Shown here piece after piece: positions 15,468 to 42,665 of a stretch of DNA of 47,531 nucleotides. The stretch is taken from UHGV virus genome UHGV-1357271. The stretch is one strand, 5' to 3'. A program made the translations under genes and the position numbers. The stretch comes from a virus. Position 1 is the stretch's first letter; each line of letters opens with the position of its first letter. Below the pieces are notes generated by a model that worked only from the letters and a program-made list of their open reading frames with translations, had not been told where the DNA came from and searched no databases.

Positions 15468-15749
15468 ATGAAAGATGAATTCAAAGGTACAAAAGGTCCG
15501 TGGTTTTGGGATGAGGAAGGTCTGGGGAATAAACATCACATAGTATTCGGAAAGGGGTATCCGATTGAGGTGACAAGCAAAGAAAATAAGTCTCTTATTG
15601 CCGCGGCACCAGAGTTACTTGAAGCTCTTCGCCAGCTTCGCGATTATGTTGAGGATGTTTGCGCAGTATCGTCGGATGATTACCATGAGGAACATCCATT
15701 AAATCTGGCAAACAAAGCAATCAAGAAAGCATTAGGAAAGAAACAATGA
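15468..15749 (+). CDS. hypothetical protein, paralog of 27622..27918
   Basis: Shares K-G-x-W, LIAAAPELLEAL and KAIKKALG motifs with the second copy. Confidence 0.5.
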   Translation: MKDEFKGTKGPWFWDEEGLGNKHHIVFGKGYPIEVTSKENKSLIAAAPELLEALRQLRDYVEDVCAVSSDDYHEEHPLNLANKAIKKALGKKQ

Positions 15750-16555
15750 AAACACTCAGCAAAATCTATTCAGACAAAGAAACCCGAAACGGAATCGCTG
15801 TTAACAAAACCTATCTCGTGCCAGTGGAGCAAATCTATCTTGAGCCGGGATACAACATCCGCGAAGCAGATGAGCAACACGTTGAGTATTTCGCGCAGTG
15901 CTGGGAATCAGGTCAGCCATTACCAGCATTAACAATTATTCCTGACGAGAAGGGAATACGAATTCTTGATGGTCAGCATCGCTATCTCGGCGCATTGCGT
16001 GCCATTGAGCGTGGCGCACCAATCGTTCGCATTGAGTGTAAGGATTTCACTGGCGACGAGGCGGACAAAATCGCCTTCATGGTGTCATCAAGTCAGGGTA
16101 AGCAGCTTGACCCGTTTGAGCGAGCAAAGGCTTATACGCGACTGAAAGGCTTTGGCTGGACGAATGAAGAAATCGCCAAAAAGGTAGGTCGCTCAGTATC
16201 TGACGTGCAGATGCACCTGTCATTAGGCGACGTGCCAGCAGAAGTGAAAGCACGCATTAGTGCCGGCCAAATCAGCTATGCAAATGCTGTAGCGGTAACT
16301 CGTGAGCATGGCGATGATGCGGTTAAAGTTATCGATGAAGCTGTAGAAGAAGCGAAGGCGCAAGGCAAGGATAAGGTCACGGCGAAGGTGCTTAAGTCGA
16401 AAAAGATTAAGCCAGTAGACCGCCTGATTGAGTTATTGAAGCCAGCAGACCACGTTATTCTTCCTGCTGGTCATGAACTGAAGGAGGATGAGGAGTTTAT
16501 CCAGATTCCTGTTGCTGACATTCACGAGGTGATGGCAATTCTGGAGAAGATGTGA
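15746..16555 (+). CDS. ParB-like nuclease (ParB/Srx N-terminal) domain protein
   Basis: ILDGQHRYLGALRA matches the ParBc core. Plus a predicted HTH region. Confidence 0.55.
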   Translation: MKTLSKIYSDKETRNGIAVNKTYLVPVEQIYLEPGYNIREADEQHVEYFAQCWESGQPLPALTIIPDEKGIRILDGQHRYLGALRAIERGAPIVRIECKDFTGDEADKIAFMVSSSQGKQLDPFERAKAYTRLKGFGWTNEEIAKKVGRSVSDVQMHLSLGDVPAEVKARISAGQISYANAVAVTREHGDDAVKVIDEAVEEAKAQGKDKVTAKVLKSKKIKPVDRLIELLKPADHVILPAGHELKEDEEFIQIPVADIHEVMAILEKM

Positions 16556-32408: not shown

Positions 32409-32873
32409 ATGCTTTCAGTAATTTATATAGCAGCAATATGCGCAGCAAATTTCTCGGTGCATTTCTTTGGACCAGCAATCACTCCAGTAAATGCGTTTCT
32501 GTTTATTGGCCTTGATTTTGTTGTAAGGGATAAGCTGCATGAGAGGATCGGCATCAGGAAAATAATAGTCCTTATATGTATCGCCGGCGTGTTGAGTTAT
32601 TTGATTAACCCAGCCACTGATATGATTGCCATCGCAAGTGTTGCTTCGTTCGCTATCGCAGCTCTAACAGACGCATCTGTATACCAGTTACTAATTAAAA
32701 AACACTGGCTGATAAAGTCCAACTCAAGCAATGTAGCAGCATCAGCTGTTGATTCGGTCATTTTCCCGCTTATTGCCTTCGGTTCTTTTATGCCGCTAGT
32801 TGTCGCTGGTCAATTTGTAGCTAAAGTTTGCGGCGGCGCAGCATGGTCATTAATTTTGAGGAAAGCAAAATGA
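32409..32873 (+). CDS. YhhQ/VUT-family (DUF165) queuosine-precursor transporter-like membrane protein, truncated (154 aa)
   Basis: NVAASAVDSVIFPLIAF and KKHWLIKSNSS align with E. coli YhhQ GNVSDTLAFFFIAF and RRWWLAPTAS. Polytopic. Confidence 0.5.
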   Translation: MLSVIYIAAICAANFSVHFFGPAITPVNAFLFIGLDFVVRDKLHERIGIRKIIVLICIAGVLSYLINPATDMIAIASVASFAIAALTDASVYQLLIKKHWLIKSNSSNVAASAVDSVIFPLIAFGSFMPLVVAGQFVAKVCGGAAWSLILRKAK

Positions 32874-33655
32874 TACATCATTATCACGGTCTGCCGATAT
32901 GGGGTGATGGAGTGATGGAGATTGCAACCAGAGGTAGTGGGGCTTTTGTATCACACGCATGGCCTCAGCAAACCCAAAAAGCACTTGATTCAGCTGGTAG
33001 CGTGGCACTTGATAATGGCGCATTCAGTGCATGGAGAAGTGGGAAGCCAGTGAAGGACTGGACTCCATTTTACCAGTGGCTTATGAGGCACTACCACAAT
33101 GAGAAACTTGAATTTTTCATTATTCCAGACGTAATTGATGGAAATGAGGAAGACAACGACAAACTCATTGACAGTCTGCCATTAATGTTTAAAGAGAAAG
33201 CCGTTCCTACATGGCACCTGCATGAATCAATAGACAGGCTTGTCAGGTTATGCGAAGAGTGGCCCAAGGTGTGCTTTGGGTCATCAGGCGAGTATGCTGT
33301 GATAAGAACCAAGCGCTGGCACGAAAGAATGACGGAAGCGTTCACAGAAATTTACATCAAAAGAAACCTAAAAACAAAAATTCATGGCTTACGAATGCTT
33401 GACGGAAGAGTTCTTGGTAACTACCCACTACACACGGCTGACAGCACAAATCTTGCGTGCAACGTGCCAAAATTTGACAAGAAGTACCCTGAATTAACGC
33501 GAGCAATAATTGAGGCGGAATACAGCAAATCTCTTGATGCAAGGGAGTTGAAACAAACAATTCTGAGAGGTAGGGCAGCTGTATTGAAAGGAGCTGTGGA
33601 GAAGGTTAAGCCGCCATCGGTTGAAGAATGGATTCAAAAACAAGCCCTCAGATGA
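32870..33655 (+). CDS. TGT-fold 7-deazaguanine transglycosylase (DpdA-like) candidate
   Basis: Translationally coupled to the transporter (ATGA). ALDNGAFSAW resembles the TGT catalytic LTDSGGFQ region. 261 aa. Confidence 0.4.
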   Translation: MIHHYHGLPIWGDGVMEIATRGSGAFVSHAWPQQTQKALDSAGSVALDNGAFSAWRSGKPVKDWTPFYQWLMRHYHNEKLEFFIIPDVIDGNEEDNDKLIDSLPLMFKEKAVPTWHLHESIDRLVRLCEEWPKVCFGSSGEYAVIRTKRWHERMTEAFTEIYIKRNLKTKIHGLRMLDGRVLGNYPLHTADSTNLACNVPKFDKKYPELTRAIIEAEYSKSLDARELKQTILRGRAAVLKGAVEKVKPPSVEEWIQKQALR

Positions 33656-33672
33656 GGGCTTTATTTTTATCG
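33636..33672. terminator. bidirectional terminator
   Basis: The sequence aagccctcagatgagggctttatttttat lies between convergent genes. Confidence 0.7.
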
Positions 33673-35091
33673 CCTGCGCCGGATTAGCATCCCGCTTCCG
33701 CGCTGGACGATGTGGTCATTGAGCGCGTAGCGAACCGCATCCCAGTAGTGGTTGTATGCATCAACAATATCAGTCAGCACATTTCCAGTCAGCTTATCAA
33801 CCTTGTAGCTGTACATTGCGGCTTCATTCTGCATTTCCTTGCATCGCTCATGAATGATGATGCTGTCACAGCCGCGCAACCACGTAACGCCATCCTCAAC
33901 GCTGCCGGGCCATTTCGTGCACGGGTGAATATCAAAGCCAGAGCGCTTGATGTGGCTGATGGTTTCAGGGCGCGCGCAGTCGGCATACCATCGTGCGCGC
34001 TTAGCCATAGGAAATGATTGTTCCATCGCGGCCGGCGTATCCGTAATCTCAAGTCCAACTTTCCCGTACTCGCGATTAATATAAATGTTGCGTCGTCCAC
34101 CTGGTAACTCTTCAATATAAACCTCAACCATTGCGGTAGGATCGGTGGAAAACCCGAAGTCCATCCCGAAATATGGGCCATGCCACTCAGGTTTGACCTC
34201 GAAGTTATCAATGCGCCATTTTCCGCCGAAGACCTGCTCATCGCTACGCTTATTAAAGGCTCCCATCCAAATCCAGCGATAACGGTCGTAATCAGTTCGC
34301 TTCATTTGCTCCATGGCAGATGGCAGCGGTGTATCCCAGAACCATGGGTTGTCTGAATAGTTACATTCGATAATCAGAATTTCATCGTTTTCGAATATGC
34401 CATCAACCATCTGTGAGTGATAAGGAGCAATCCAGTTAGTCCACGTCGGGTCTGTCTCCTTGTTGGGGTTGAATGAGCACCACAGTTCTGAATTGGCGGC
34501 GCGGATGGTAGGCACAAGAATATCCCAGCTTGTCTGGCTGACATTCTCCGCTTCCTCTACCCAGCCGACGGTAATACCAGCAAAACCCTTAACGGTTGTC
34601 TGGTTGCGATACAGTCCCTTGAAGCGAAACTTCGCTTTAGTCTTTTTGTGTGTTATCTCGTTGTTGATAACGCGAAACTCTGCCGATTCACCCTTGCGAG
34701 CTATTTCGTCAACAAGTTCCTGATAGCTTGAGTCCTCAATGGATTGCTGAATCTCACGAAAGCAGGCGAAACGGTCAGAGCGAAACCTTGCGCGCTCAGT
34801 TAGTATAGTGATAATCGTTCTCGTCTTCCCTGAACCGCGACCACCGTAGACAAACTTAAAACGCTTCGGGTAAAGCAGGCGTTCCAGCTTTGCCGGGATT
34901 AAGTGGTCGGCATGAGTGGTTGCATTGGTCACATCATCAACGCCAGTGGCGGTCATCCTTAACCGCTTAATGACGTTTTTCTGCATGTCGCAGATGCCAA
35001 AGATGGCGGATTCTGCAACATCTGTCATCGCGTCATCAATCTGCGCTTCCAGCTTTTCGATTGCCAGTGCAGAGAGGCGTTTACGAGCCAT
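33667..35091 (-). CDS. terL: terminase large subunit
   Basis: Walker A YGGRGSGKT. Nuclease-domain acidic residues. 474 aa. Confidence 0.9.
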   Translation of the reverse strand: MARKRLSALAIEKLEAQIDDAMTDVAESAIFGICDMQKNVIKRLRMTATGVDDVTNATTHADHLIPAKLERLLYPKRFKFVYGGRGSGKTRTIITILTERARFRSDRFACFREIQQSIEDSSYQELVDEIARKGESAEFRVINNEITHKKTKAKFRFKGLYRNQTTVKGFAGITVGWVEEAENVSQTSWDILVPTIRAANSELWCSFNPNKETDPTWTNWIAPYHSQMVDGIFENDEILIIECNYSDNPWFWDTPLPSAMEQMKRTDYDRYRWIWMGAFNKRSDEQVFGGKWRIDNFEVKPEWHGPYFGMDFGFSTDPTAMVEVYIEELPGGRRNIYINREYGKVGLEITDTPAAMEQSFPMAKRARWYADCARPETISHIKRSGFDIHPCTKWPGSVEDGVTWLRGCDSIIIHERCKEMQNEAAMYSYKVDKLTGNVLTDIVDAYNHYWDAVRYALNDHIVQRGSGMLIRRRR

Positions 35092-35216
35092 TGATTAACT
35101 CCTGAAGGATAGCTGCCAACTCTTCATCACTCATTGGTTCGTCAAATATGACACCACGTTCGCCGCCACTGCGTGGCAGAATAATCTCATCACATCTTTG
35201 TTTATAATAAACTGAA

Positions 35217-35663
35217 TCATCCATTCTGCTGCTCCAATAACTCCTCCAGTCGCTCAAGGCGTGCTGCGAGTTCGGTTAATTCTTTTACGTCAAGACCAAC
35301 CTTAATCATAGACACGACCTGCGACGCTACGTCAATTGGAAGCTCGCCGCTGGAAACAGATTGAATGACGTCTTCTATCTGCTCAACTGGAGTAGCGTCT
35401 TTGCGGTATTTAAAATTAACCGGAGGTGCCATGCTTTTTTGCACTGGACTGATGCGCAGGAATATTTCCTTCAGCATTTGAACACCCTGAGTCGGGTTTT
35501 CCTCCGTCATCTTAATTGAAGTCCTGATGAACGCATCAAGGAATTCCTCCTCGCCAAGCCCACATCGTTTTAATGCTTCAATAAGCCTGTTTCTGTAGCT
35601 TAATCCTCTGCCAGCAGGCTGGTATTCAGAGGAAAATTTCATGACAGGATTTGGATTAGCCAT
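35217..35663 (-). CDS. putative terminase small subunit (148 aa)
   Basis: Immediately upstream of terL. Coiled-coil C-terminus. Preceded by a terminator and an intergenic region. Confidence 0.4.
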   Translation of the reverse strand: MANPNPVMKFSSEYQPAGRGLSYRNRLIEALKRCGLGEEEFLDAFIRTSIKMTEENPTQGVQMLKEIFLRISPVQKSMAPPVNFKYRKDATPVEQIEDVIQSVSSGELPIDVASQVVSMIKVGLDVKELTELAARLERLEELLEQQNG

Positions 35664-37362: not shown

Positions 37363-37545
37363 TCAGAACACGATAATCAGCTCATCCATTACTCTGCGCT
37401 TACCATCACCATTAAACACTCGCACAACGCGATTTACGCGGATAGATTCCATTGCATTGCGTGCCTGCTTGCTCATAAAGTTCTGCGCGCCAACGTGACC
37501 GAGTTCAGGCTCCAGTTTTTCGCGACGATAGATAGTCTTTGCCAT
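37363..37545 (-). CDS. hypothetical protein (60 aa)
   Basis: AAGGAG SD. Confidence 0.4.
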   Translation of the reverse strand: MAKTIYRREKLEPELGHVGAQNFMSKQARNAMESIRVNRVVRVFNGDGKRRVMDELIIVF

Positions 37546-37548
37546 GTG

Positions 37549-37644
37549 TTACTCCTTATACCCTGATTTAGAAACTGCCACTGCGATAATGATGAATGCC
37601 ACGACAACCAGACTGGAGATGAGTTCGAATGGTGCGCCTGTCAT
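37549..37644 (-). CDS. small TM protein (31 aa)
   Basis: ATGA overlap. Sequence MTGAPFELISSLVVVAFIIIAVAVSKSGYKE. Confidence 0.35.
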   Translation of the reverse strand: MTGAPFELISSLVVVAFIIIAVAVSKSGYKE

Positions 37645-37787
37645 TTGCTTAACCCATACGCTGATATTAAAGCCTGCATTGCTGCGTTACAGAATGCTTC
37701 TGCAGGAATGCTGTTGTTTGTACGATCAACTGCAATGCGCGCCATAGCCTGTGCATCTTCAAATTCTTCGCGGACTTTGATTTTCAT
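37641..37787 (-). CDS. hypothetical protein (48 aa), first gene of the leftward early operon
   Basis: GAGGT SD. Immediately downstream of the minus-strand promoter. Confidence 0.4.
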   Translation of the reverse strand: MKIKVREEFEDAQAMARIAVDRTNNSIPAEAFCNAAMQALISAYGLSK

Positions 37788-37817
37788 CTCTTCAACCTCG
37801 TTTGTTTCGATGAGTTC

Positions 37818-37846
37818 AATCTACATCAATGATGATTCTACGTCAA
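37818..37846 (-). promoter_or_regulatory. leftward promoter TTGACG-N17-TAGATT with two GTAGA(A/T)T motifs
   Basis: Minus strand reads ttgacgtagaatcatcattgatgtagatt. Confidence 0.5.
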
Positions 37847-37919
37847 CATGATTTTCAGTTGTCACATTAGTGGGTTCTGGTGAAACAGGGCCAGTTGCGC
37901 GATTATTAATCACACCACA

Positions 37920-38270
37920 AAAACCCGGTAAATGCAGGTTTCCCAAATAAAGTACCGGTAATCAATAACTTAGAAGAGCAATCAAGGATTGAAAACTGCT
38001 GTATTTACCTACAGGTGGTAAAAATGAATCCAGTAATGACGCGGTCTGCGGAGGAGTTACCGGTTTTACCCGGTAAATTATATAGAGGTAAGTAAGTTAT
38101 TCATTCATATTAATATATTGATTTTATTAGATTTCTTTAATATTAGACCAATTAATACACTACAACTCTTAATGATGAAAATACTCCTTAAGAAATCCGG
38201 TAAAACCGGTAAAACGTTATTAATCAATTTGTTACATTAAAAAACCACAGGTAAAAACCAGGTAAAGACG
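37920..38270. repeat. putative replication origin: CCGGTAAA(A) iteron array flanking an AT-rich DNA-unwinding element
   Basis: At least 8 copies of the (A/C)CGGTAAA core (37924, 37954, 38069, 38196, 38205; inverted at 38059; variants CAGGTAAA at 38249 and 38260). A ~60-bp stretch of more than 80% AT lies at 38100-38160. Non-coding region between divergent operons, close to the primase and helicase genes. Confidence 0.5.
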
Positions 38271-38437
38271 GTATAAGTCGAGCAAAAATTCATCAAACTA
38301 TACAGTCAACACACATTATAGGTGATGGACTGGTCATACCTGCTGATTGGTTTGGTGACTGCTCATGTTCTGATGTGTTTTTATTGCATATCTTTTTTAT
38401 TTATATAAAATTAGAGTAACTGGATATGGAGGTAAGT

Positions 38438-38677
38438 ATGAAAGAACTAAATTACCGTAAAGGGTCAAATCTTGAGTGGGTGTACGGGTTACTTAAGCGC
38501 CTGAGGAGAACGCATGATGGGTGGTTTGTTTGTGGCGAAGATTGGGAACGTGCGCGCGCGATGGGGTTACCGAGTTTTCGAACAAATGTAAGTATTGTTT
38601 CAAGGGATATGGGTATCAAGGTGTTGGTGAACGTTGAAAAAGACGAAATTTTATTATTACACATGGGGTGGAGGTAG
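38438..38677 (+). CDS. hypothetical protein (80 aa), first gene after the origin region
   Basis: GGAGGT SD. Confidence 0.4.
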   Translation: MKELNYRKGSNLEWVYGLLKRLRRTHDGWFVCGEDWERARAMGLPSFRTNVSIVSRDMGIKVLVNVEKDEILLLHMGWR

Positions 38678-38679
38678 GT

Positions 38680-38970
38680 ATGAGTTGCGCTCCGATATTC
38701 CCTGTCACGACATCTCTTGCTCACGACGTGATAAATAATCTTACCGCTCCTGATGGGTGTCAGTTTTACTTTGAGAACGGGTATTCAACTTCAATTTTGA
38801 TTGGTGGAAGAGATGGGTGCTACGGATACGATATAGAGCGAGGTTTTCAGATGACAATGACGTCACTTCAGAAGGCGCTAAAAATTGAGGCGGACAGGGT
38901 TGGCGCTGTGTTAACGGTGAAACAAGGTATTATCCCTGGCAAATTCTTGCGAGTATGGAGGGTATATTGA
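38680..38970 (+). CDS. hypothetical protein (96 aa)
   Basis: GGAGGT SD. Confidence 0.4.
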   Translation: MSCAPIFPVTTSLAHDVINNLTAPDGCQFYFENGYSTSILIGGRDGCYGYDIERGFQMTMTSLQKALKIEADRVGAVLTVKQGIIPGKFLRVWRVY

Positions 38971-40550
38971 TGGGCGCTATTGATTTTGATTCTATGGCTA
39001 TGGGTATAAACAGGAAGGCTCCTGGTGCACTTGGTGAGTTTATGGATGAGATTGCGAAAAACTTTGAGCGCCGTAATGATGGTGAGAGATATCGTTTAAC
39101 TGGCGCTTTGGGTCTTGCTCAGGCTATGGCTGGACGATACTTGATTGGTCCAACAGGTAGTATCTGCAATACTGGCATTTTTCTGGTAGCTCGCTCTGGT
39201 GCAGGTAAGGGTGCTCCGGTGAGTTTCGTCAGGGCATATGCCAATGCGCTTGGAATAGGGTCAAGAGTTTGCGCATCTAAATCAACCTCGACGAAACAGA
39301 TGCAGTTAGACCTGATTGCTGGAGGTGGGTCTTTGCTCTACGTTGTGAACGATGACAAACAGCATCTTGAAGACTGGAACAACCCGCGCAATGCATATCT
39401 TGGCGGTACTATGGCGTGGTATAGAGGTCTTACTGACGGCGGCGTGTGGGTGCCTAACAGACCAATAATCAAGGAGCTGCTTGAAAACCTTACTTGGGAA
39501 CAAAACCCAAAACGCATCATGGCGGCAGCAAGTGCTGAGGGGTGGATAGTGCCACTTACTGGTGGCGATGATGGGAAAGGGGTCATAGATTATAAGCGCC
39601 TTTCGATGATGGACCACAGCGTTGGGCGCGCGCTCAAGTCGGCAATGAATGAGTACGAACTTGCAACAAAAGACGGTGGAATTGAAAACGCAAAATTTGT
39701 TCCGCTGATTACTGTCACTCCAGAGCAGGGAATAGATGCTGCGCGTTCATGGCAGAAAGATGGCGGCATGGGGCGAGTGCTGTTTCAGCTCGGGCATCTT
39801 GCTGGTGAGGAAATGCCAGCGATGAAGGATGTGGAAGTGAACGGCACACTTTCAAGAAAAATAATCAATGAGTGGAAAGGTAGGATTCTTACCGCGAAAA
39901 CTAACGCTGTATGGGCTGATGATGATGTGAAAAAACTGCACAGATCTCTGTCTATGAAACTGGAAAGTGAGCTTGGTGATCGCGATGGTGTTGTTGGTGA
40001 CGTTATCCCGCGCATGGGGCTAATGATTGTAGACCTTGCAACGCTTGCGGCTTACGCAGACCTGTCAAGTCGCCGTGGAATGACGCCAGCAGTTACGATT
40101 GAGCATGTCGAATGGGGATATATCGTGGTTCTTGAGCATCTCGCTGGTCTGCAAAGATTCCTTGAGGGCGAACAGGAGTTTGATGGGCTTGAAAATACTG
40201 AATGGGAGAACATTGTAGAAAAAATTAAGCGAATTTGTGAATCACAGGCATTCATTAAAACTCCTTACTTGTCTGTTATAAAGAACAAGCTGTGTCGTGA
40301 TAGAATTAAAAAGATAATCAATTCTGCTGACTCTAATAACATCACACTAACACCTGATAAGTTTGTTTATGAGGTTCTTCTTGCTATTGAGGAAAATAAG
40401 CATTCACCACTAATGCTGGACAGGGATAACCCAAGAGCTATAAAGATGTGCGGTGATGGCTCATGGGATGGTCTGCGAATGAACTCAACGGTTAGAAATT
40501 ATCTTTCTGCTGCTGTTAAGCGCATGAGATTTATGAGGGGGTTGAAATGA
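38970..40550 (+). CDS. P-loop NTPase, putative replication/origin-associated ATPase (~526 aa)
   Basis: Walker A ARSGAGKG. GGAGGG SD. Near the origin and primase. Confidence 0.4.
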   Translation: MGAIDFDSMAMGINRKAPGALGEFMDEIAKNFERRNDGERYRLTGALGLAQAMAGRYLIGPTGSICNTGIFLVARSGAGKGAPVSFVRAYANALGIGSRVCASKSTSTKQMQLDLIAGGGSLLYVVNDDKQHLEDWNNPRNAYLGGTMAWYRGLTDGGVWVPNRPIIKELLENLTWEQNPKRIMAAASAEGWIVPLTGGDDGKGVIDYKRLSMMDHSVGRALKSAMNEYELATKDGGIENAKFVPLITVTPEQGIDAARSWQKDGGMGRVLFQLGHLAGEEMPAMKDVEVNGTLSRKIINEWKGRILTAKTNAVWADDDVKKLHRSLSMKLESELGDRDGVVGDVIPRMGLMIVDLATLAAYADLSSRRGMTPAVTIEHVEWGYIVVLEHLAGLQRFLEGEQEFDGLENTEWENIVEKIKRICESQAFIKTPYLSVIKNKLCRDRIKKIINSADSNNITLTPDKFVYEVLLAIEENKHSPLMLDRDNPRAIKMCGDGSWDGLRMNSTVRNYLSAAVKRMRFMRGLK

Positions 40551-40963: not shown

Positions 40964-40995
40964 CAAAAACCCTCCATATGGAGGGTTTCTTTTAT
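40964..40995. terminator. bidirectional terminator
   Basis: The sequence aaccctccatatggagggtttcttttat. Confidence 0.7.
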
Positions 40996-41945
40996 CTGCA
41001 AACTGACATCTTCTCTATCAACTCGCCAGCGTCATAAATCTTTCTTCTGATTCGCCTCGCCATCCTGATTGTGTCAGCATCATCAGGCAGCATCACCGGA
41101 AGTCCTGCGTTTTCCGCAGCGCAAAGTTCGTCAAATTTATAATTAACTATGCAGCGTAACCGTAACTTCATCTCATCGCTAACAGAGCGCACCACTTCCC
41201 ACATGTTTTCCGGCGACCAGCAGCACCAGACATGAGCGCCAGTGAAGTAATGACATTTCCACGCGTCGGCATAATCAGATACCAGATAAATGAACTTTCC
41301 GTTATCTTCACCGATTGTGCTTATCGCGCCGCGCGTGAGTTTACCGTTTATGGCTGAGTCTTTGTTGTACCCTGCTTTATAAAATGTTCTGAATGCATCA
41401 CCATCCAGACCAATGAATGCCACGTTGCACGGTTTCATTGTGTCAGCGAGCATCATCTCAACCGCAATAAGCTCTCCAGATTTCCCTCTGACGACGTTAA
41501 CATCGCAACCAATACCATTTATCAAAGTCCACTCATTTATCGCGACACGCGTCGTTTTAGTCATGATTGCGGCGACTTCCTGCTCAGTGATGAAGTCATC
41601 GTTGTAATTTATCTTCGGCAGTTCCTTCCTGATTGCCTCCAGTTTTTCGCGTGGATGCATGTTGAGAAAACCGCCAAGTGCCTCCAGTGCTTCAGGGAAG
41701 GTCATTCCAGATAGCTTCATCAGCCAGTTCATGCCACTACCGGAACCGCACTGATTGCAGATTGCACCGCCATCGCCTTTTGTTTCGAAGTTGTCATCAA
41801 AGCGATACCTGTCTTTGCCTGAGCATGACGGGCACGGCTGATGCTTGCCATTGAAAACTCTGCTATCCACATTGACGATAGACATGATGGCAGCCTGCCA
41901 ATTTCCGAGCATTTTTTGCTCAATGTCTTTCCAGTCGTATCTCAT
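40992..41945 (-). CDS. DNA primase (P4-type Zn-ribbon + Toprim)
   Basis: CPSCSGKDRYRFDD...CNQCG zinc ribbon. The start is taken at MRYDWKD, which has an AGGAAG SD. The upstream ATG in the track overlaps the promoter. Confidence 0.65.
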   Translation of the reverse strand: MRYDWKDIEQKMLGNWQAAIMSIVNVDSRVFNGKHQPCPSCSGKDRYRFDDNFETKGDGGAICNQCGSGSGMNWLMKLSGMTFPEALEALGGFLNMHPREKLEAIRKELPKINYNDDFITEQEVAAIMTKTTRVAINEWTLINGIGCDVNVVRGKSGELIAVEMMLADTMKPCNVAFIGLDGDAFRTFYKAGYNKDSAINGKLTRGAISTIGEDNGKFIYLVSDYADAWKCHYFTGAHVWCCWSPENMWEVVRSVSDEMKLRLRCIVNYKFDELCAAENAGLPVMLPDDADTIRMARRIRRKIYDAGELIEKMSVCR

Positions 41946-42017
41946 AAAATCTTCCTGTTGACGTTGATGTAGAATCATTGTAATTTACTCACATGAAACA
42001 ATCAATCGTTACTTGCA
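41946..42017. promoter_or_regulatory. divergent promoters between the primase and HNH/helicase operons
   Basis: Rightward promoter TTGACG at 41958-41963, 17-nt spacer containing GATGTAGAATCAT, then TAATTT. Leftward promoter TTGATT-N17-TACAAT on the minus strand. Confidence 0.45.
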
Positions 42018-42052
42018 ATGAAACAATTAATCGTTACAATAGAGGGTAAGAA

Positions 42053-42202
42053 ATGGCTATCACCGTCAAGAAATGCGAGGTTTGCGGAAATGAGTTCATC
42101 GGAACTGCAAAAGCAAAATGTTGCTCAGGAAAGTGTAGATTGCGCAAGCACAGACAGAAGAAAAACCCAATTCATAACTCAAAAACAGATAATGGAATAT
42201 CT
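42053..42202 (+). CDS. small Zn-ribbon protein (49 aa)
   Basis: AGAGGG SD. Sequence MAITVKKCEVCGNEF...CCSGKC. In a different frame from the downstream HNH gene. Confidence 0.4.
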
Positions 42203-42665
42203 TGAATATAACCCTGAGACTGGTGTCTTTACAGCTGCAAAAACACATGGAACACTCTGGCGTAAAGGCAAGGTTGTTGGTCATAAGAATAAGGCAGGTT
42301 ACATTACCATCACGCTACTAGGAAAACTAAGGAAAGCTCATAGGCTGGCATGGATTTATGTTTATGGAGGAGATATTGATGGGTATGAAATAGACCATAT
42401 AAATGGTGATAAATCAGACAATAGAATTTGCAACCTTAGGATTTCTAGTCACCAGCAAAACATGTTCAACATGAAAAAGAAATCAACAAACAAATCTGGT
42501 GTAAAAGGTGTGCATTTTGATAAAAGATGCAACAAATGGAGAGCGCAGACATCAATAAACAAGAAGAGGGTTCATCTTGGTTTGTTTGACACCATAGAAT
42601 CAGCAGAAAAGGCGATTCGTGAATTCATGGTTGCTAACCATAAAGAGTTTATTAATTTAGGGTAA
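42192..42665 (+). CDS. HNH homing endonuclease with AP2 DNA-binding domain
   Basis: YEIDHINGDKSDNRICNLRISSHQQN (HNH motif). SGVKGVHFDKRCNKWRAQ (AP2 domain). Start taken at MEYLEYNPETG. Confidence 0.6.
   Translation: MEYLEYNPETGVFTAAKTHGTLWRKGKVVGHKNKAGYITITLLGKLRKAHRLAWIYVYGGDIDGYEIDHINGDKSDNRICNLRISSHQQNMFNMKKKSTNKSGVKGVHFDKRCNKWRAQTSINKKRVHLGLFDTIESAEKAIREFMVANHKEFINLG

What the first reader, a model, noticed from the sequence alone, without database searches (positions are those of the whole stretch)
37920..38270. Iteron array (CCGGTAAAA, 8 or more copies) plus AT-rich unwinding element: candidate origin of replication
A ~580-bp non-coding gap between the leftward early operon promoter (37818-37846) and the rightward operon starting at 38438. 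Repeats of (A/C)CGGTAAA(A) occur in both orientations and in tandem pairs (38059/38069; 38196/38205). A more than 80% AT block lies at 38100-38160. The downstream operon encodes a small protein, a P-loop ATPase, a primase and a helicase, consistent with an ori-initiator arrangement.
Basis: partly seen in the sequence, partly recalled or inferred. Interest (0 to 1): 0.6.

Follow-up and report, generated by a model that had tools for sequence, protein, structure and literature searches.

The report
Likely phage replication origin, swappable cassette
The repeat-studded, AT-rich gap between two divergent early operons of this virulent E. coli siphophage is most likely its origin of DNA replication, and it forms an exchangeable cassette with the unannotated helicase-like gene beside it; this is a familiar kind of element, first described here for this phage group, and not experimentally proven.

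Summary
In window 37850-38383, GGTAAA occurs 9 times, against 0.74 expected from local shuffles. The 9-bp unit CCGGTAAAA occurs about 12 times with up to 2 mismatches. The region holds the most AT-rich 100 bp of the 47.5-kb window and three IHF-consensus sites.

The same layout lies at the same position in all 47 related loci long enough to read: repeat cluster, AT block, repeat cluster, then usually one or more small genes and always a ~500-550-aa P-loop protein. The repeat motif differs by lineage, with at least nine types. The flanking genes (terminase, ParB-like protein, primase, SF2 helicase, leftward early genes) stay 85-99% identical.

So repeats, AT block, small gene(s) and helicase-like gene travel as one cassette, window ~37850-40550. 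Distant relatives of the 531-aa protein in other contexts keep the layout. One of them has no small gene.

In Salmonella phage seszw, about 70 published genome-reduced mutants all keep the homologous intergenic DNA. Neighbouring genes on both sides, and in two mutants the small gene, are deleted.

Best reading: a replication origin whose repeats bind the cassette's own initiator, probably the helicase-like protein. It is not a classical iteron/Rep origin. Nothing maps initiation directly.

The parts
37818..37846 (-). Leftward early promoter, TTGACG-17-TAGATT. It lies outside the cassette. Homology with more than 100 related phages stops just upstream of its -35 hexamer.
   Evidence: promoter scan; megablast hits at 88-96% identity end at about query position 150, which is window 37850.
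37925..37963 (+). Outer left repeat units CCGGTAAAT (37925-37933) and CCGGTAATC (37955-37963).
   Evidence: Invariant in 6 phages.
37960..37972 (+). IHF-consensus site AATCAATAACTTA.
   Evidence: The identical 13-mer lies at the equivalent place in the distant locus L070.
38003..38023 (.). Divergent pair of weaker units: TAGGTAAAT on the minus strand (38003-38011) and GTGGTAAAA on the plus strand (38015-38023).
38055..38078 (-). Inner left tandem pair on the minus strand, CCGGTAACT (38055-38063) and CGGGTAAAA (38064-38072), overlapped by a plus-strand unit CCGGTAAAT (38070-38078).
   Evidence: (I1). Invariant in 6 phages.
38080..38195 (.). AT-rich block, the presumed DNA-unwinding element. It is the lowest-GC stretch of the whole window.
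   Evidence: A syntenic block of 13-24% GC is present in all 47 related loci long enough to read.
38111..38123 (-). IHF-consensus site inside the AT block (AATCAATATATTA on the minus strand).
38197..38214 (+). Inner right tandem pair: two exact CCGGTAAAA units with 9-bp spacing. This is the inverted partner of 38057-38070.
38222..38234 (+). IHF-consensus site AATCAATTTGTTA. The same 13-mer is present in the AT region of Vi II-E1-type phages.
38248..38276 (+). Outer right units CAGGTAAAA, CAGGTAAAG and ACGGTATAA, at 9-11-bp spacing.
38325..38383 (.). Variable spacer. It is deleted in Bas80/Bas77 and replaced by a terminator-like hairpin in ZCEC08, Bas81, ASO78B and L025. It is probably not part of the core element.
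38384..38411 (+). Putative rightward promoter, TTGCAT-16-TAAAAT. It was read by eye and is below the scan threshold.
   Evidence: Read. Not found. Clearer promoters sit at this position in L010 and seszw.
38438..38677 (+). 79-aa protein with a winged-helix-like predicted fold, a member of the small-protein family found upstream of these helicase-like genes. Candidate accessory DNA-binding protein.
   Evidence: pLDDT 83.6, H-b-H-H-b-b topology. (no significant PDB match). (p79 versus c6: hhalign 94%, E=1.7e-7).
38680..38970 (+). 96-aa protein (cluster c2) directly upstream of the helicase-like gene. It diverges much faster than the helicase between repeat-motif classes.
   Evidence: 95% identity within the same motif class, 19-27% between classes; c2 versus c6, 83%. 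The structure model failed.
38955..40550 (+). 531-aa P-loop protein (cluster c3), a remote relative of DUF3987 replicative helicases. Proposed helicase and probable origin-recognition protein.
   Evidence: phrog_3022, 3e-13. (DUF3987, E=0.13). (remote profile hits carry DUF3987 and Prim-Pol+PriCT_2+DUF3987). (homologous to cluster c1, which the seszw depositors annotate 'replicative DNA helicase').
40992..41978 (-). DnaG/T7-type primase (zinc ribbon). It is conserved at 91-95% identity across the close-relative classes (57-64% in the distant Klebsiella-type clade) and lies outside the cassette.

Best explanation
Window ~37850-38383 is the phage's origin of replication. It forms one exchangeable cassette (~37850-40550) with the genes to its right.

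Proposed mechanism:
1. A cassette-encoded protein binds the 9-bp CCGGTAAAA-type units. These flank a ~115-bp AT-rich unwinding block, and the inner tandem pairs are arranged as a dyad.
2. The binder is most likely the 531-aa DUF3987-related helicase-like protein itself. The small winged-helix-like proteins p79 and p96 would act as accessory or specificity factors.
3. Host IHF bends the DNA at three consensus sites.
4. The AT block opens and the helicase is loaded, plausibly in both directions.
5. The phage primase primes. Host polymerase extends, since no replicative polymerase gene was seen.

Shown here: the repeats, the AT block, the IHF consensus sites, the conserved architecture with motif turnover, the cassette boundaries, and retention of the homologous DNA in genome-reduced mutants of a relative.

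Inferred: protein binding, which protein binds, melting, and initiation at this site.
For: 1. The region is the strongest hexamer cluster and the most AT-rich 100 bp in 47.5 kb. GGTAAA occurs 9 times against 0.74 expected. IHF consensus occurs 3 times against 0.11 expected, reached in 1 of 3000 shuffles.

2. All 47 related loci of at least 4 kb (of the 53 fetched through the primase) have a 13-24% GC block at the same distance from the primase. It is flanked by repeats whose sequence differs by lineage: CCGGTAAAA, CCGGTAACT, GGGAACTC, CGTGGGGCA, GTGGGGAA, GGGATAA, GGGCGAA, GGGCATA, TGGGGCA. These motifs are almost absent from the other ~6 kb of each locus.

3. Cassette exchange. TerS, TerL, o48, DUF7540, primase and SF2 helicase stay 85-99% identical to the window in phages with unrelated repeats. 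Meanwhile p79, p96 and p531 are replaced or drop to 53%. Genes downstream of the helicase-like gene (ASCH and others) are shared across classes.

4. Right of the AT block there is always a ~495-551-aa P-loop protein of class c0 (Pfam DUF3987, 2e-33), c1 or c3. DUF3987 is a replicative-helicase family: predicted in PMC4889955, helicase activity shown for one member in PMC11724360.

5. Distant c3 relatives in other contexts keep the layout of reversed units, AT block, forward units, helicase gene, each with its own unit. These are KLB16, which has no small gene, L070 and L071.

6. The inner tandem pairs are a perfect 14-nt inverted repeat around the AT block. The same symmetry is seen in L010 and L034 with different units, so both arms co-vary.

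7. Salmonella phage seszw (PMC9825161). All deposited genome-reduced mutants, down to 36.0 kb, keep the homologous 520-bp intergenic DNA at 100% coverage. Genes 53-59, gene 47 and, in two mutants, the small gene 50 are deleted. The ORF annotated inside the region is truncated in mutant 290S.

8. GC skew flips sign here, from -0.15 to +0.25, at the cumulative minimum.

9. No replicative DNA polymerase is annotated in the closest relative and none was seen among the replication-type ORFs scanned here.
Against: - No initiation mapping, binding assay or ori-cloning result exists for any member.
- The essential helicase operon's promoter lies in the same intergenic region. Retention in the seszw mutants therefore does not separate origin from promoter, and that study says it did not target likely regulatory elements.
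- The GC-skew switch coincides with the switch in transcription direction.
- In seszw, two GGATAA units lie in the spacer of the rightward promoter, as expected of an operator. That fits autoregulation by an initiator, but also a pure transcription factor.
- The link of c3/c1 to Pfam DUF3987 is indirect: hhalign of c3 against c0 is not significant.
- Dyad symmetry is not universal. In class c1 nearly all units point one way.
Confidence: 0.7

Rival explanations
1. The repeats are operators or upstream sites for a phage transcription factor (p79, p96 or their analogues) that controls the divergent early promoters. The AT block would be promoter or UP-element DNA, and replication would start elsewhere or by recombination.
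For: - The region lies between divergent promoters.
- p79 has a winged-helix-like model.
- The small proteins diverge with the motif.
- In seszw, GGATAA units lie inside the rightward promoter spacer.
- The small gene is dispensable in seszw, as an accessory regulator might be.
- The phage has an Erf/RecE-type recombination module.
Against: - In the window the units lie 80-230 bp upstream of the leftward -35 hexamer and 110-190 bp upstream of the putative rightward -35. They do not overlap the core promoters.
- The leftward promoter is conserved across phages with unrelated repeats.
- KLB16 has the repeats but no small gene.
- The motif core follows the helicase class, c3: GGTAA-like; c1: GGATAA; c0: GGGG[CAT]A.
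- A ~115-bp promoter-free AT block flanked by a dyad is not needed for an operator.
- The promoter scan finds fewer promoter-like sites here than in shuffles.
Confidence: 0.17
2. The region is a packaging (pac) recognition site for the small terminase, or a centromere-like site for the phage ParB-like protein.
For: - pac and parS sites are often arrays of short repeats with an IHF site, as in P1 pac and P1 parS (general knowledge).
- The terminase genes lie 2.1 kb to the left, at 33667-35663.
- A ParB-like gene is present at 15746-16555.
Against: - The putative TerS is 97-99% identical to the window's in phages carrying CCGGTAACT, CGTGGGGCA, GTGGGGAA or GGGCGAA repeats.
- The ParB-like protein is 97-98.5% identical in seszw/Skate (GGGATAA), swi2 (CCGGTAACT) and HC6 (GTGGGG-type).
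- A binder that does not change cannot read sites that do.
Confidence: 0.03
3. The repeats and AT block have no function. They would be a recombination scar or a mosaic junction between modules, or short protein-coding ORFs as annotated in some relatives.
For: - The region is a mosaic boundary.
- Short ORFs are annotated here in Bas80, ZCEC08, Bas81 and seszw.
Against: - The central 340 bp is nearly invariant in six phages whose flanks differ.
- The architecture is kept while the motif turns over in more than 50 loci.
- The annotated ORFs differ in strand and position between relatives.
- The seszw ORF is frameshifted in viable mutants that keep the DNA.
Confidence: 0.03

Closest known systems
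Phage P4 ori/crr with the alpha protein (primase, helicase and a C-terminal winged-helix origin-binding domain). From general knowledge, not tested here.
   Same: Short (8-10 bp) repeated units in both orientations are read by the replicative helicase protein itself. No separate Rep/O-type initiator and no DnaA requirement. The replication protein is encoded next to its site.
   Different: P4 alpha is an SF3 (D5-type) helicase fused to its primase. Here the helicase-like protein is DUF3987-related and the DnaG/T7-type primase is a separate, convergent gene. P4 needs a second site (crr); no second cluster exists in this window. Binding by p531 is inferred only.
Lambda ori with O and P, and the exchangeable replication modules of lambdoid phages
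   Same: Repeated initiator sites lie next to an AT-rich region. Origin and initiator co-vary and are swapped as a module between otherwise similar phages. Host polymerase is used.
   Different: Lambda has four 19-bp direct iterons inside the O gene, and O recruits host DnaB through P. Here the units are 9 bp, intergenic and dyad-arranged, and the phage brings its own helicase-like protein and primase. No O- or P-like protein was found.
Iteron plasmid origins (pSC101, R6K gamma, P1 oriR, F oriS) with Rep_3-type initiators
   Same: Repeats plus AT-rich block plus IHF site(s). The initiator gene is adjacent. Repeat-like units in the initiator's promoter (seen in seszw) would give autoregulation.
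   Different: Plasmid iterons are 17-22 bp, direct and on one side of the AT region, with DnaA boxes. Here the units are 9 bp and on both sides, DnaA boxes are not enriched, there is no Rep_3 protein, and no homologue of p531 occurs in 72,556 plasmids.
Archaeal oriC (inverted ORB elements around a DUE; Orc1/Cdc6 loads MCM) and SV40/papillomavirus origins (helicase-initiator on inverted short repeats)
   Same: Inverted short repeats flank an AT-rich unwinding element. The helicase is described as distantly MCM-related (DUF3987, PMC4889955). The dyad would suit loading two helicases head to head.
   Different: No Orc1/Cdc6 homologue is present. The relation of p531 to MCM is remote and indirect. 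The dyad is clear only for the inner pairs and is absent in class c1 relatives.

Membership tests
Iteron-type origin (lambda O / plasmid Rep_3 type) | Several direct repeats of about 17-22 bp, in helical phase, on one side of the AT-rich region | tested here: not met
   The units are 9 bp, occur in both orientations and lie on both sides of the AT block. Only the right-hand cluster is a direct array, at 9-11-bp spacing.
Iteron-type origin (lambda O / plasmid Rep_3 type) | Adjacent AT-rich unwinding region | tested here: met
   38080-38195, GC 17-22%, the lowest in the window.
Iteron-type origin (lambda O / plasmid Rep_3 type) | Cognate Rep/O-family initiator encoded next to or around the repeats | tested here: not met
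   No Rep_3, lambda O or other initiator family hit for p79, p96 or p531 in Pfam, PHROGs or NCBIfam.
Iteron-type origin (lambda O / plasmid Rep_3 type) | DnaA boxes assisting initiation (most plasmid members) | tested here: not met
   One TTWTNCACA match with 1 mismatch, against 1.4 expected.
Origin of replication (any type) | Replication initiates at the site, or the fragment supports autonomous replication with its protein | not testable with these tools
   Only indirect evidence: retention in about 70 genome-reduced seszw mutants, and a GC-skew switch that is confounded by transcription direction.
Origin of replication (any type) | Site and replication protein co-vary and are inherited together | tested here: met
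   Cassette boundaries and motif turnover. Distant helicase relatives keep the layout.
Helicase-initiator origins (P4 alpha, SV40 LTag, papillomavirus E1 type) | The replicative helicase itself binds short repeats arranged in inverted orientation | tested here: inconclusive
   The inverted inner pairs are present. KLB16 has repeats and helicase-like gene but no small gene. The small gene is dispensable in seszw.
DUF3987 (PF13148) replicative helicase, for p531 | Match to the Pfam model above its gathering score | tested here: not met
   E=0.13, 11.8 bits against a cut-off of 27. Remote profile hits of the p531 family do carry DUF3987. hhalign against the Vi II-E1-type DUF3987 proteins is not significant.
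DUF3987 (PF13148) replicative helicase, for p531 | Walker A lysine and Walker B acidic residues | tested here: met
   SGAGKG (S81, G82, G84 and K85 are invariant) and LLYVVNDD (D133 invariant) in alignment A2. They align with IADSAGGKD and FIIDEC of class c1.
pac site / parS centromere | The sites co-vary with the terminase small subunit or with ParB | tested here: not met
   TerS is 97-99% identical and ParB-like 97-98.5% identical in phages with unrelated repeats.

The most novel reading that the evidence does not exclude
Skatevirus-like virulent phages carry a self-contained, freely exchangeable replicon cassette. In it, an unannotated branch of DUF3987/MCM-related helicases acts as its own origin-recognition protein on dyad-arranged 8-9-bp repeats, in the manner of P4 alpha or SV40 large T antigen. 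At least nine origin specificities circulate among otherwise near-identical genomes. The small winged-helix or AP2 proteins in front of the helicase gene are optional specificity or regulatory add-ons. Frequent cassette swapping would then point to selection on replication specificity, for example escape from interference between co-infecting phages or from host defences that target the origin-initiator pair.
Probability: 0.3. Interest if true: 0.6.

Novelty: new member of a known kind. Interest (0 to 1): 0.45.

Why it matters
This phage group covers Skatevirus, Macdonaldcampvirus, Shuimuvirus and the BASEL phages Bas77-81. These phages are isolated often, are used as biocontrol candidates, and include a chassis for genome minimisation (seszw). 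Their replication is undescribed, and the 531-aa protein is 'hypothetical' in all 11 phage records that carry it.

A defined origin-plus-helicase cassette of about 2.7 kb would:
- give a testable minimal replicon;
- explain why this stretch resisted deletion in the genome-reduction study;
- provide a natural series of at least nine matched site-protein pairs for studying how origin specificity evolves.

It does not change the general picture of how phage origins are built.

Tried and rejected
- Rfam scan of 37500-38800: only a chance snoRNA hit at E=0.72. No known RNA element.
- DnaA boxes: not enriched.
- pac site or parS: rejected by lack of co-variation with TerS and ParB-like.
- p531 against PDB sequences, as a single sequence and as a profile: nothing below E=0.1.
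- p531 against plasmids: no match, so there is no evidence that the cassette serves as a plasmid replicon.
- Direct hhalign of c3 against Pfam-type DUF3987 (c0): not significant. The link rests on intermediate sequences.
- AlphaFold model of p96: pLDDT 41, unusable.
- p79 model: good (pLDDT 83.6), but Foldseek against PDB gave no match below E=0.19. The weak hits include winged-helix domains such as Stn1, ArsR and Fur.
- p79 against Xp10 P7 transcription regulator: E=0.026 in Pfam and 0.019 in PHROGs. Both are below threshold and not echoed by the fold search, so this was treated as chance.
- RNA fold of window 38296-38392: no better than shuffles on either strand, so the terminator-like hairpin of some relatives is not present here.
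- Other CCGGTAAAA matches in the window (89, 20504 and others): isolated and within coding sequence. There is no second cluster.
- Literature: no paper held in the library discusses an origin for these phages. The Vi II-E1 genome paper could not be read; its GenBank record marks two 25-bp repeats here without assigning a function.

Full report
**What the window is.** The window is a ~47.5-kb virulent siphophage genome of the Skatevirus-like cluster. Its closest relatives are the E. coli phages Bas80, Bas77, ZCEC08, Bas81 and ASO78B (group placement from PMC11990801). The finding lies in the 650-bp gap between two divergent operons.
- On the left is a leftward gene for a 48-aa protein (37641-37787).
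- On the right is a rightward gene for a 79-aa protein (38438-38677).
- The leftward promoter TTGACG-17-TAGATT is at 37846..37818.
- A weaker rightward promoter (TTGCAT-16-TAAAAT, 38384-38411) was read by eye only.

- GGTAAA occurs 9 times in 37850-38383 out of 32 in the whole window. Local dinucleotide-preserving shuffles give 0.74 ± 0.84 and never more than 5 in 5000 trials.
- The unit is best written CCGGTAAAA. There are two exact copies in tandem (38197, 38206), six copies with up to 1 mismatch, and about twelve with up to 2 mismatches.
- Among all 534-bp windows of the sequence this is the top hexamer cluster. It also contains the lowest-GC 100 bp, 20% against 46.6% overall.
- The strict IHF consensus WATCAANNNNTTR occurs three times (37960+, 38111-, 38222+), against 0.11 expected locally. 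That count is reached in 1 of 3000 shuffles.
- DnaA boxes are not enriched, and no Rfam family matches.

**Anatomy.** From left to right:
- outer left units, 37925 and 37955;
- an IHF-consensus site;
- a divergent weak pair, 38003-38023;
- an inner tandem pair on the minus strand, 38055-38072;
- the AT block, 38080-38195;
- an inner tandem pair on the plus strand, 38197-38214;
- a second IHF-consensus site outside the block;
- three more plus-strand units, 38248-38276.

The two inner pairs form a perfect 14-nt inverted repeat 128 nt apart (I1). The CCGG ends therefore face the AT block from both sides. In six close relatives the stretch from ~37900 to ~38230 is almost invariant. The segment 38325-38383 is deleted or replaced in relatives.

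**Comparative evidence.** I fetched 53 loci through the conserved primase.
- Every one of the 47 loci with at least 4 kb beyond the primase has a 100-bp block of 13-24% GC. It lies 2.1-3.2 kb from the primase 3' end in all but one, which is at 4.1 kb.
- Within ±350 bp of that block each lineage has its own over-represented motif, nearly absent from the other ~6 kb of the locus:
  - CCGGTAAAA (window, L025)
  - CCGGTAACT (swi2 type)
  - GGGAACTC
  - CGTGGGGCA (Vi II-E1 and IME207 type; two copies are annotated as bare 'repeat_region' in the Vi II-E1 record)
  - GTGGGGAA
  - GGGATAA (Skate and seszw)
  - GGGCGAA
  - GGGCATA
  - TGGGGCA
- IHF consensus sites are ten-fold enriched over the 48 regions analysed (the 47 loci plus the window itself): 38 observed against 3.8 expected.

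**The cassette.**
- To the right of the AT block there is always a 495-551-aa P-loop protein of one of three classes: c0, c1 or c3 (the window's p531). In these related loci, one or more small proteins usually precede it.
- Genes outside this stretch stay 85-99% identical to the window in phages whose repeats are unrelated. These genes are TerL, the putative TerS, o48, DUF7540, the primase and the SF2 helicase. Meanwhile p79, p96 and p531 are absent or only 53-59% identical.
- Left boundary: megablast homology with more than 100 phages stops at ~37850, just upstream of the leftward -35 hexamer.
- Right boundary: genes after the large protein, such as the ASCH gene, are shared between classes.
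- So repeats, AT block, small gene(s) and large gene move as one unit of ~2.7 kb.
- This also excludes the terminase and the ParB-like protein as readers of the repeats. The ParB-like protein is 97-98.5% identical in seszw, Skate, swi2 and HC6.

**What the large protein is.**
- Class c0 is Pfam DUF3987 (2e-33). A survey of viral replication proteins predicts this family to be a replicative helicase distantly related to MCM, with a C-terminal winged helix (PMC4889955). One member was later shown to unwind DNA 5'→3' (PMC11724360).
- p531 itself is below threshold for DUF3987 (E=0.13).
- It matches the helicase half of PHROG 3022, which is labelled 'DNA primase' (3e-13).
- It is clearly homologous to class c1 (hhalign E=1e-7 with shallow alignments, 2e-65 with a wider one that probably includes a c1 member). 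The seszw depositors label c1 'replicative DNA helicase'.
- An exhaustive profile search finds remote relatives that carry DUF3987 or Prim-Pol+PriCT_2+DUF3987.
- The Walker A lysine and Walker B aspartates are invariant.
- Direct c3-c0 profile comparison is not significant, so I call p531 DUF3987-related rather than a member.
- All 11 phage records that encode a relative call it hypothetical, and none is on a plasmid.

**Who reads the repeats?** There are two candidates.

For the small proteins:
- p96 (class c2) is 95% identical between phages with the same unit but 19-27% identical between unit classes. p531 is 93% against 52-58%.
- p79 has a confident model with winged-helix-like topology, but no significant structural match.
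- p79, c6 and c2 are linked by profile comparison (94% and 83%).
- In Vi II-E1-type phages the slot holds an AP2-domain protein.

For the large protein:
- It is the only cassette protein that is homologous across the c1 and c3 classes. c0 fills the same slot, but its homology to c1/c3 rests only on the indirect DUF3987 link above.
- The motif core follows its class: GGTAA-like with c3, GGATAA with c1, GGGG[CAT]A with c0.
- c0 helicases at least 98% identical sit with non-homologous small proteins (AP2 or c10) and share the CGTGGGG core.
- Klebsiella phage KLB16 has a c3 relative (34% identity) as the first gene, with no small gene. It still has reversed TTTTACCAT-type units, an AT block and forward ATGGTAAA/CTAGTAAAA units.
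- Two metagenomic relatives show the same mirror layout with the units TTGGTAA and CCAGTGATT.
- seszw mutants 290S and 290L lack the small gene entirely.

I therefore favour the helicase-like protein as the essential reader, with the small proteins as accessory. This step is inference.

**Indirect experimental evidence.** The CRISPR genome-reduction study of Salmonella phage seszw (PMC9825161) removed up to ~20% of the genome and deposited its mutants.
- The 2251-bp homologue of the cassette is complete in every seszw record listed.
- The 520-bp intergenic part is complete, at 98.9-100% identity, in every seszw record listed, including the smallest at 35,993-36,655 bp.
- In mutant 160L, genes 53-59 immediately to the left and gene 47 to the right are gone.
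- In mutant 290S the ORF annotated inside the intergenic region is truncated by 1-bp indels, yet the DNA stays. That points to a cis-acting role rather than a protein.
- Caveats: the promoter of the essential helicase operon lies in the same region, and the authors state they did not target likely regulatory elements.

**Other consistent points.**
- GC skew changes sign here at the cumulative minimum, but so does the direction of transcription.
- The phage encodes a primase, an SF2 helicase, SSB, an Erf-like annealing protein and a RecE-like exonuclease.
- No replicative polymerase is annotated in Bas80, and none was seen among the ORFs scanned here. Host polymerase is presumably used. Not every large ORF was scanned; the others match structural genes of Bas80 by size and position.

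**Rivals.**
- A purely transcriptional operator array is the main alternative (~0.17). In its favour are the location between divergent promoters and the GGATAA units inside the seszw promoter spacer. Against it:
  - the units in the window do not overlap either core promoter;
  - the leftward promoter is shared by phages with unrelated repeats;
  - the layout persists where no small regulator gene exists.
  
  Initiators of iteron plasmids also repress their own promoters through repeat-like sites, so the seszw arrangement fits the origin model too.
- pac or parS readings fail the co-variation test.
- A functionless junction is contradicted by conservation of the architecture across more than 50 loci.

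**Comparison with known systems.** Functionally this looks like an origin with repeated initiator sites around an unwinding element, next to its replication protein and exchanged as a module. That principle is known from lambdoid phages and iteron plasmids.
- It is not a member of the iteron/Rep family. The units are 9 bp, two-sided and partly inverted, with no Rep or O protein and no DnaA boxes.
- The nearest functional analogues are phage P4 (alpha protein on short repeats) and, for the dyad around a DUE with an MCM-related helicase, archaeal and SV40-type origins. These comparisons rest on general knowledge and were not tested.

**Verdict.**
- The origin interpretation is the best-supported reading (0.7) but remains unproven.
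- The element is a new member of a known kind.
- The added value lies in a defined 2.7-kb cassette, an unannotated helicase-like family, and at least nine natural site-protein variants.

Noticed in passing
L002 (ZCEC08), L003 (Bas81), L004 (ASO78B) and L025, at the position of window 38325-38383 (alignment A1 columns ~546-612): These relatives carry a strong plus-strand hairpin followed by a U-rich tail between the right repeat cluster and the rightward promoter (GGTCTGACCAG...CTGGTTAGACC; -22 kcal/mol, z = -3.5). It looks like a terminator for a short rightward transcript arising inside the origin region. The window has different, unstructured sequence there, and Bas80/Bas77 lack the segment.
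   Followed up: partly
L064-L067 (seszw mutants), alignment A5: Late genome-reduced seszw mutants carry point changes inside the origin-like region. One makes a degenerate unit consensus (TTATCTC to TTATCCC), one breaks a unit (TTATCCC to TTACCCC), and one changes GGATAA to GGGTAA in the promoter spacer. There are also 1-bp indels in homopolymer runs. These could be CRISPR-escape or adaptive changes; this was not resolved.
   Followed up: partly
window 38080-38094 and 38424-38438: The 15-mer ATATAGAGGTAAGTA at the left edge of the AT block repeats, at 93% identity, the ribosome-binding-site and start region of the 79-aa gene (ATATGGAGGTAAGTAtg). No start codon or ORF follows the first copy. 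Unexplained.
   Followed up: no
L006/L015 3100-3140, L011 2520-2545, L042 4905-4925: The right end of the AT block shares the string ACATATAC(T)TAG between phages with different helicase classes (c0 and c1) and different repeats. It may be a common feature read by shared machinery such as the conserved primase. It is not present in the window's block.
   Followed up: no
window 42018-42665, and L006 3270-3542 / L007 2611-2883: An HNH-AP2 homing-endonuclease gene sits between the primase and the SF2 helicase. In Vi II-E1-type phages the small AP2 protein in front of the helicase matches only the DNA-binding part of such endonucleases (phrog_99) and is marked a pseudogene in Vi II-E1. Some 'small proteins' in that slot may therefore be endonuclease remnants rather than replication factors.
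   Followed up: partly
window 38438-38677: The 79-aa protein gives sub-threshold hits to the Xanthomonas phage Xp10 P7 transcription regulator in two libraries (Pfam E=0.026, PHROGs E=0.019). The fold search does not support them.
   Followed up: partly
window 32828-33655: A 275-aa ORF matches a queuine tRNA-ribosyltransferase-like PHROG (2e-77). This suggests a 7-deazaguanine-type DNA modification or tRNA function in this phage.
   Followed up: no
L019, L021 and L059 (class c1 helicase with c18 small protein): These loci have the AT block but no 7-mer reaching 3 copies. By eye the units are degenerate GGATAA/TGATAA, and a 13-bp direct repeat (GAGATAGATTTTT, 2 copies) lies inside the AT block.
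   Followed up: no
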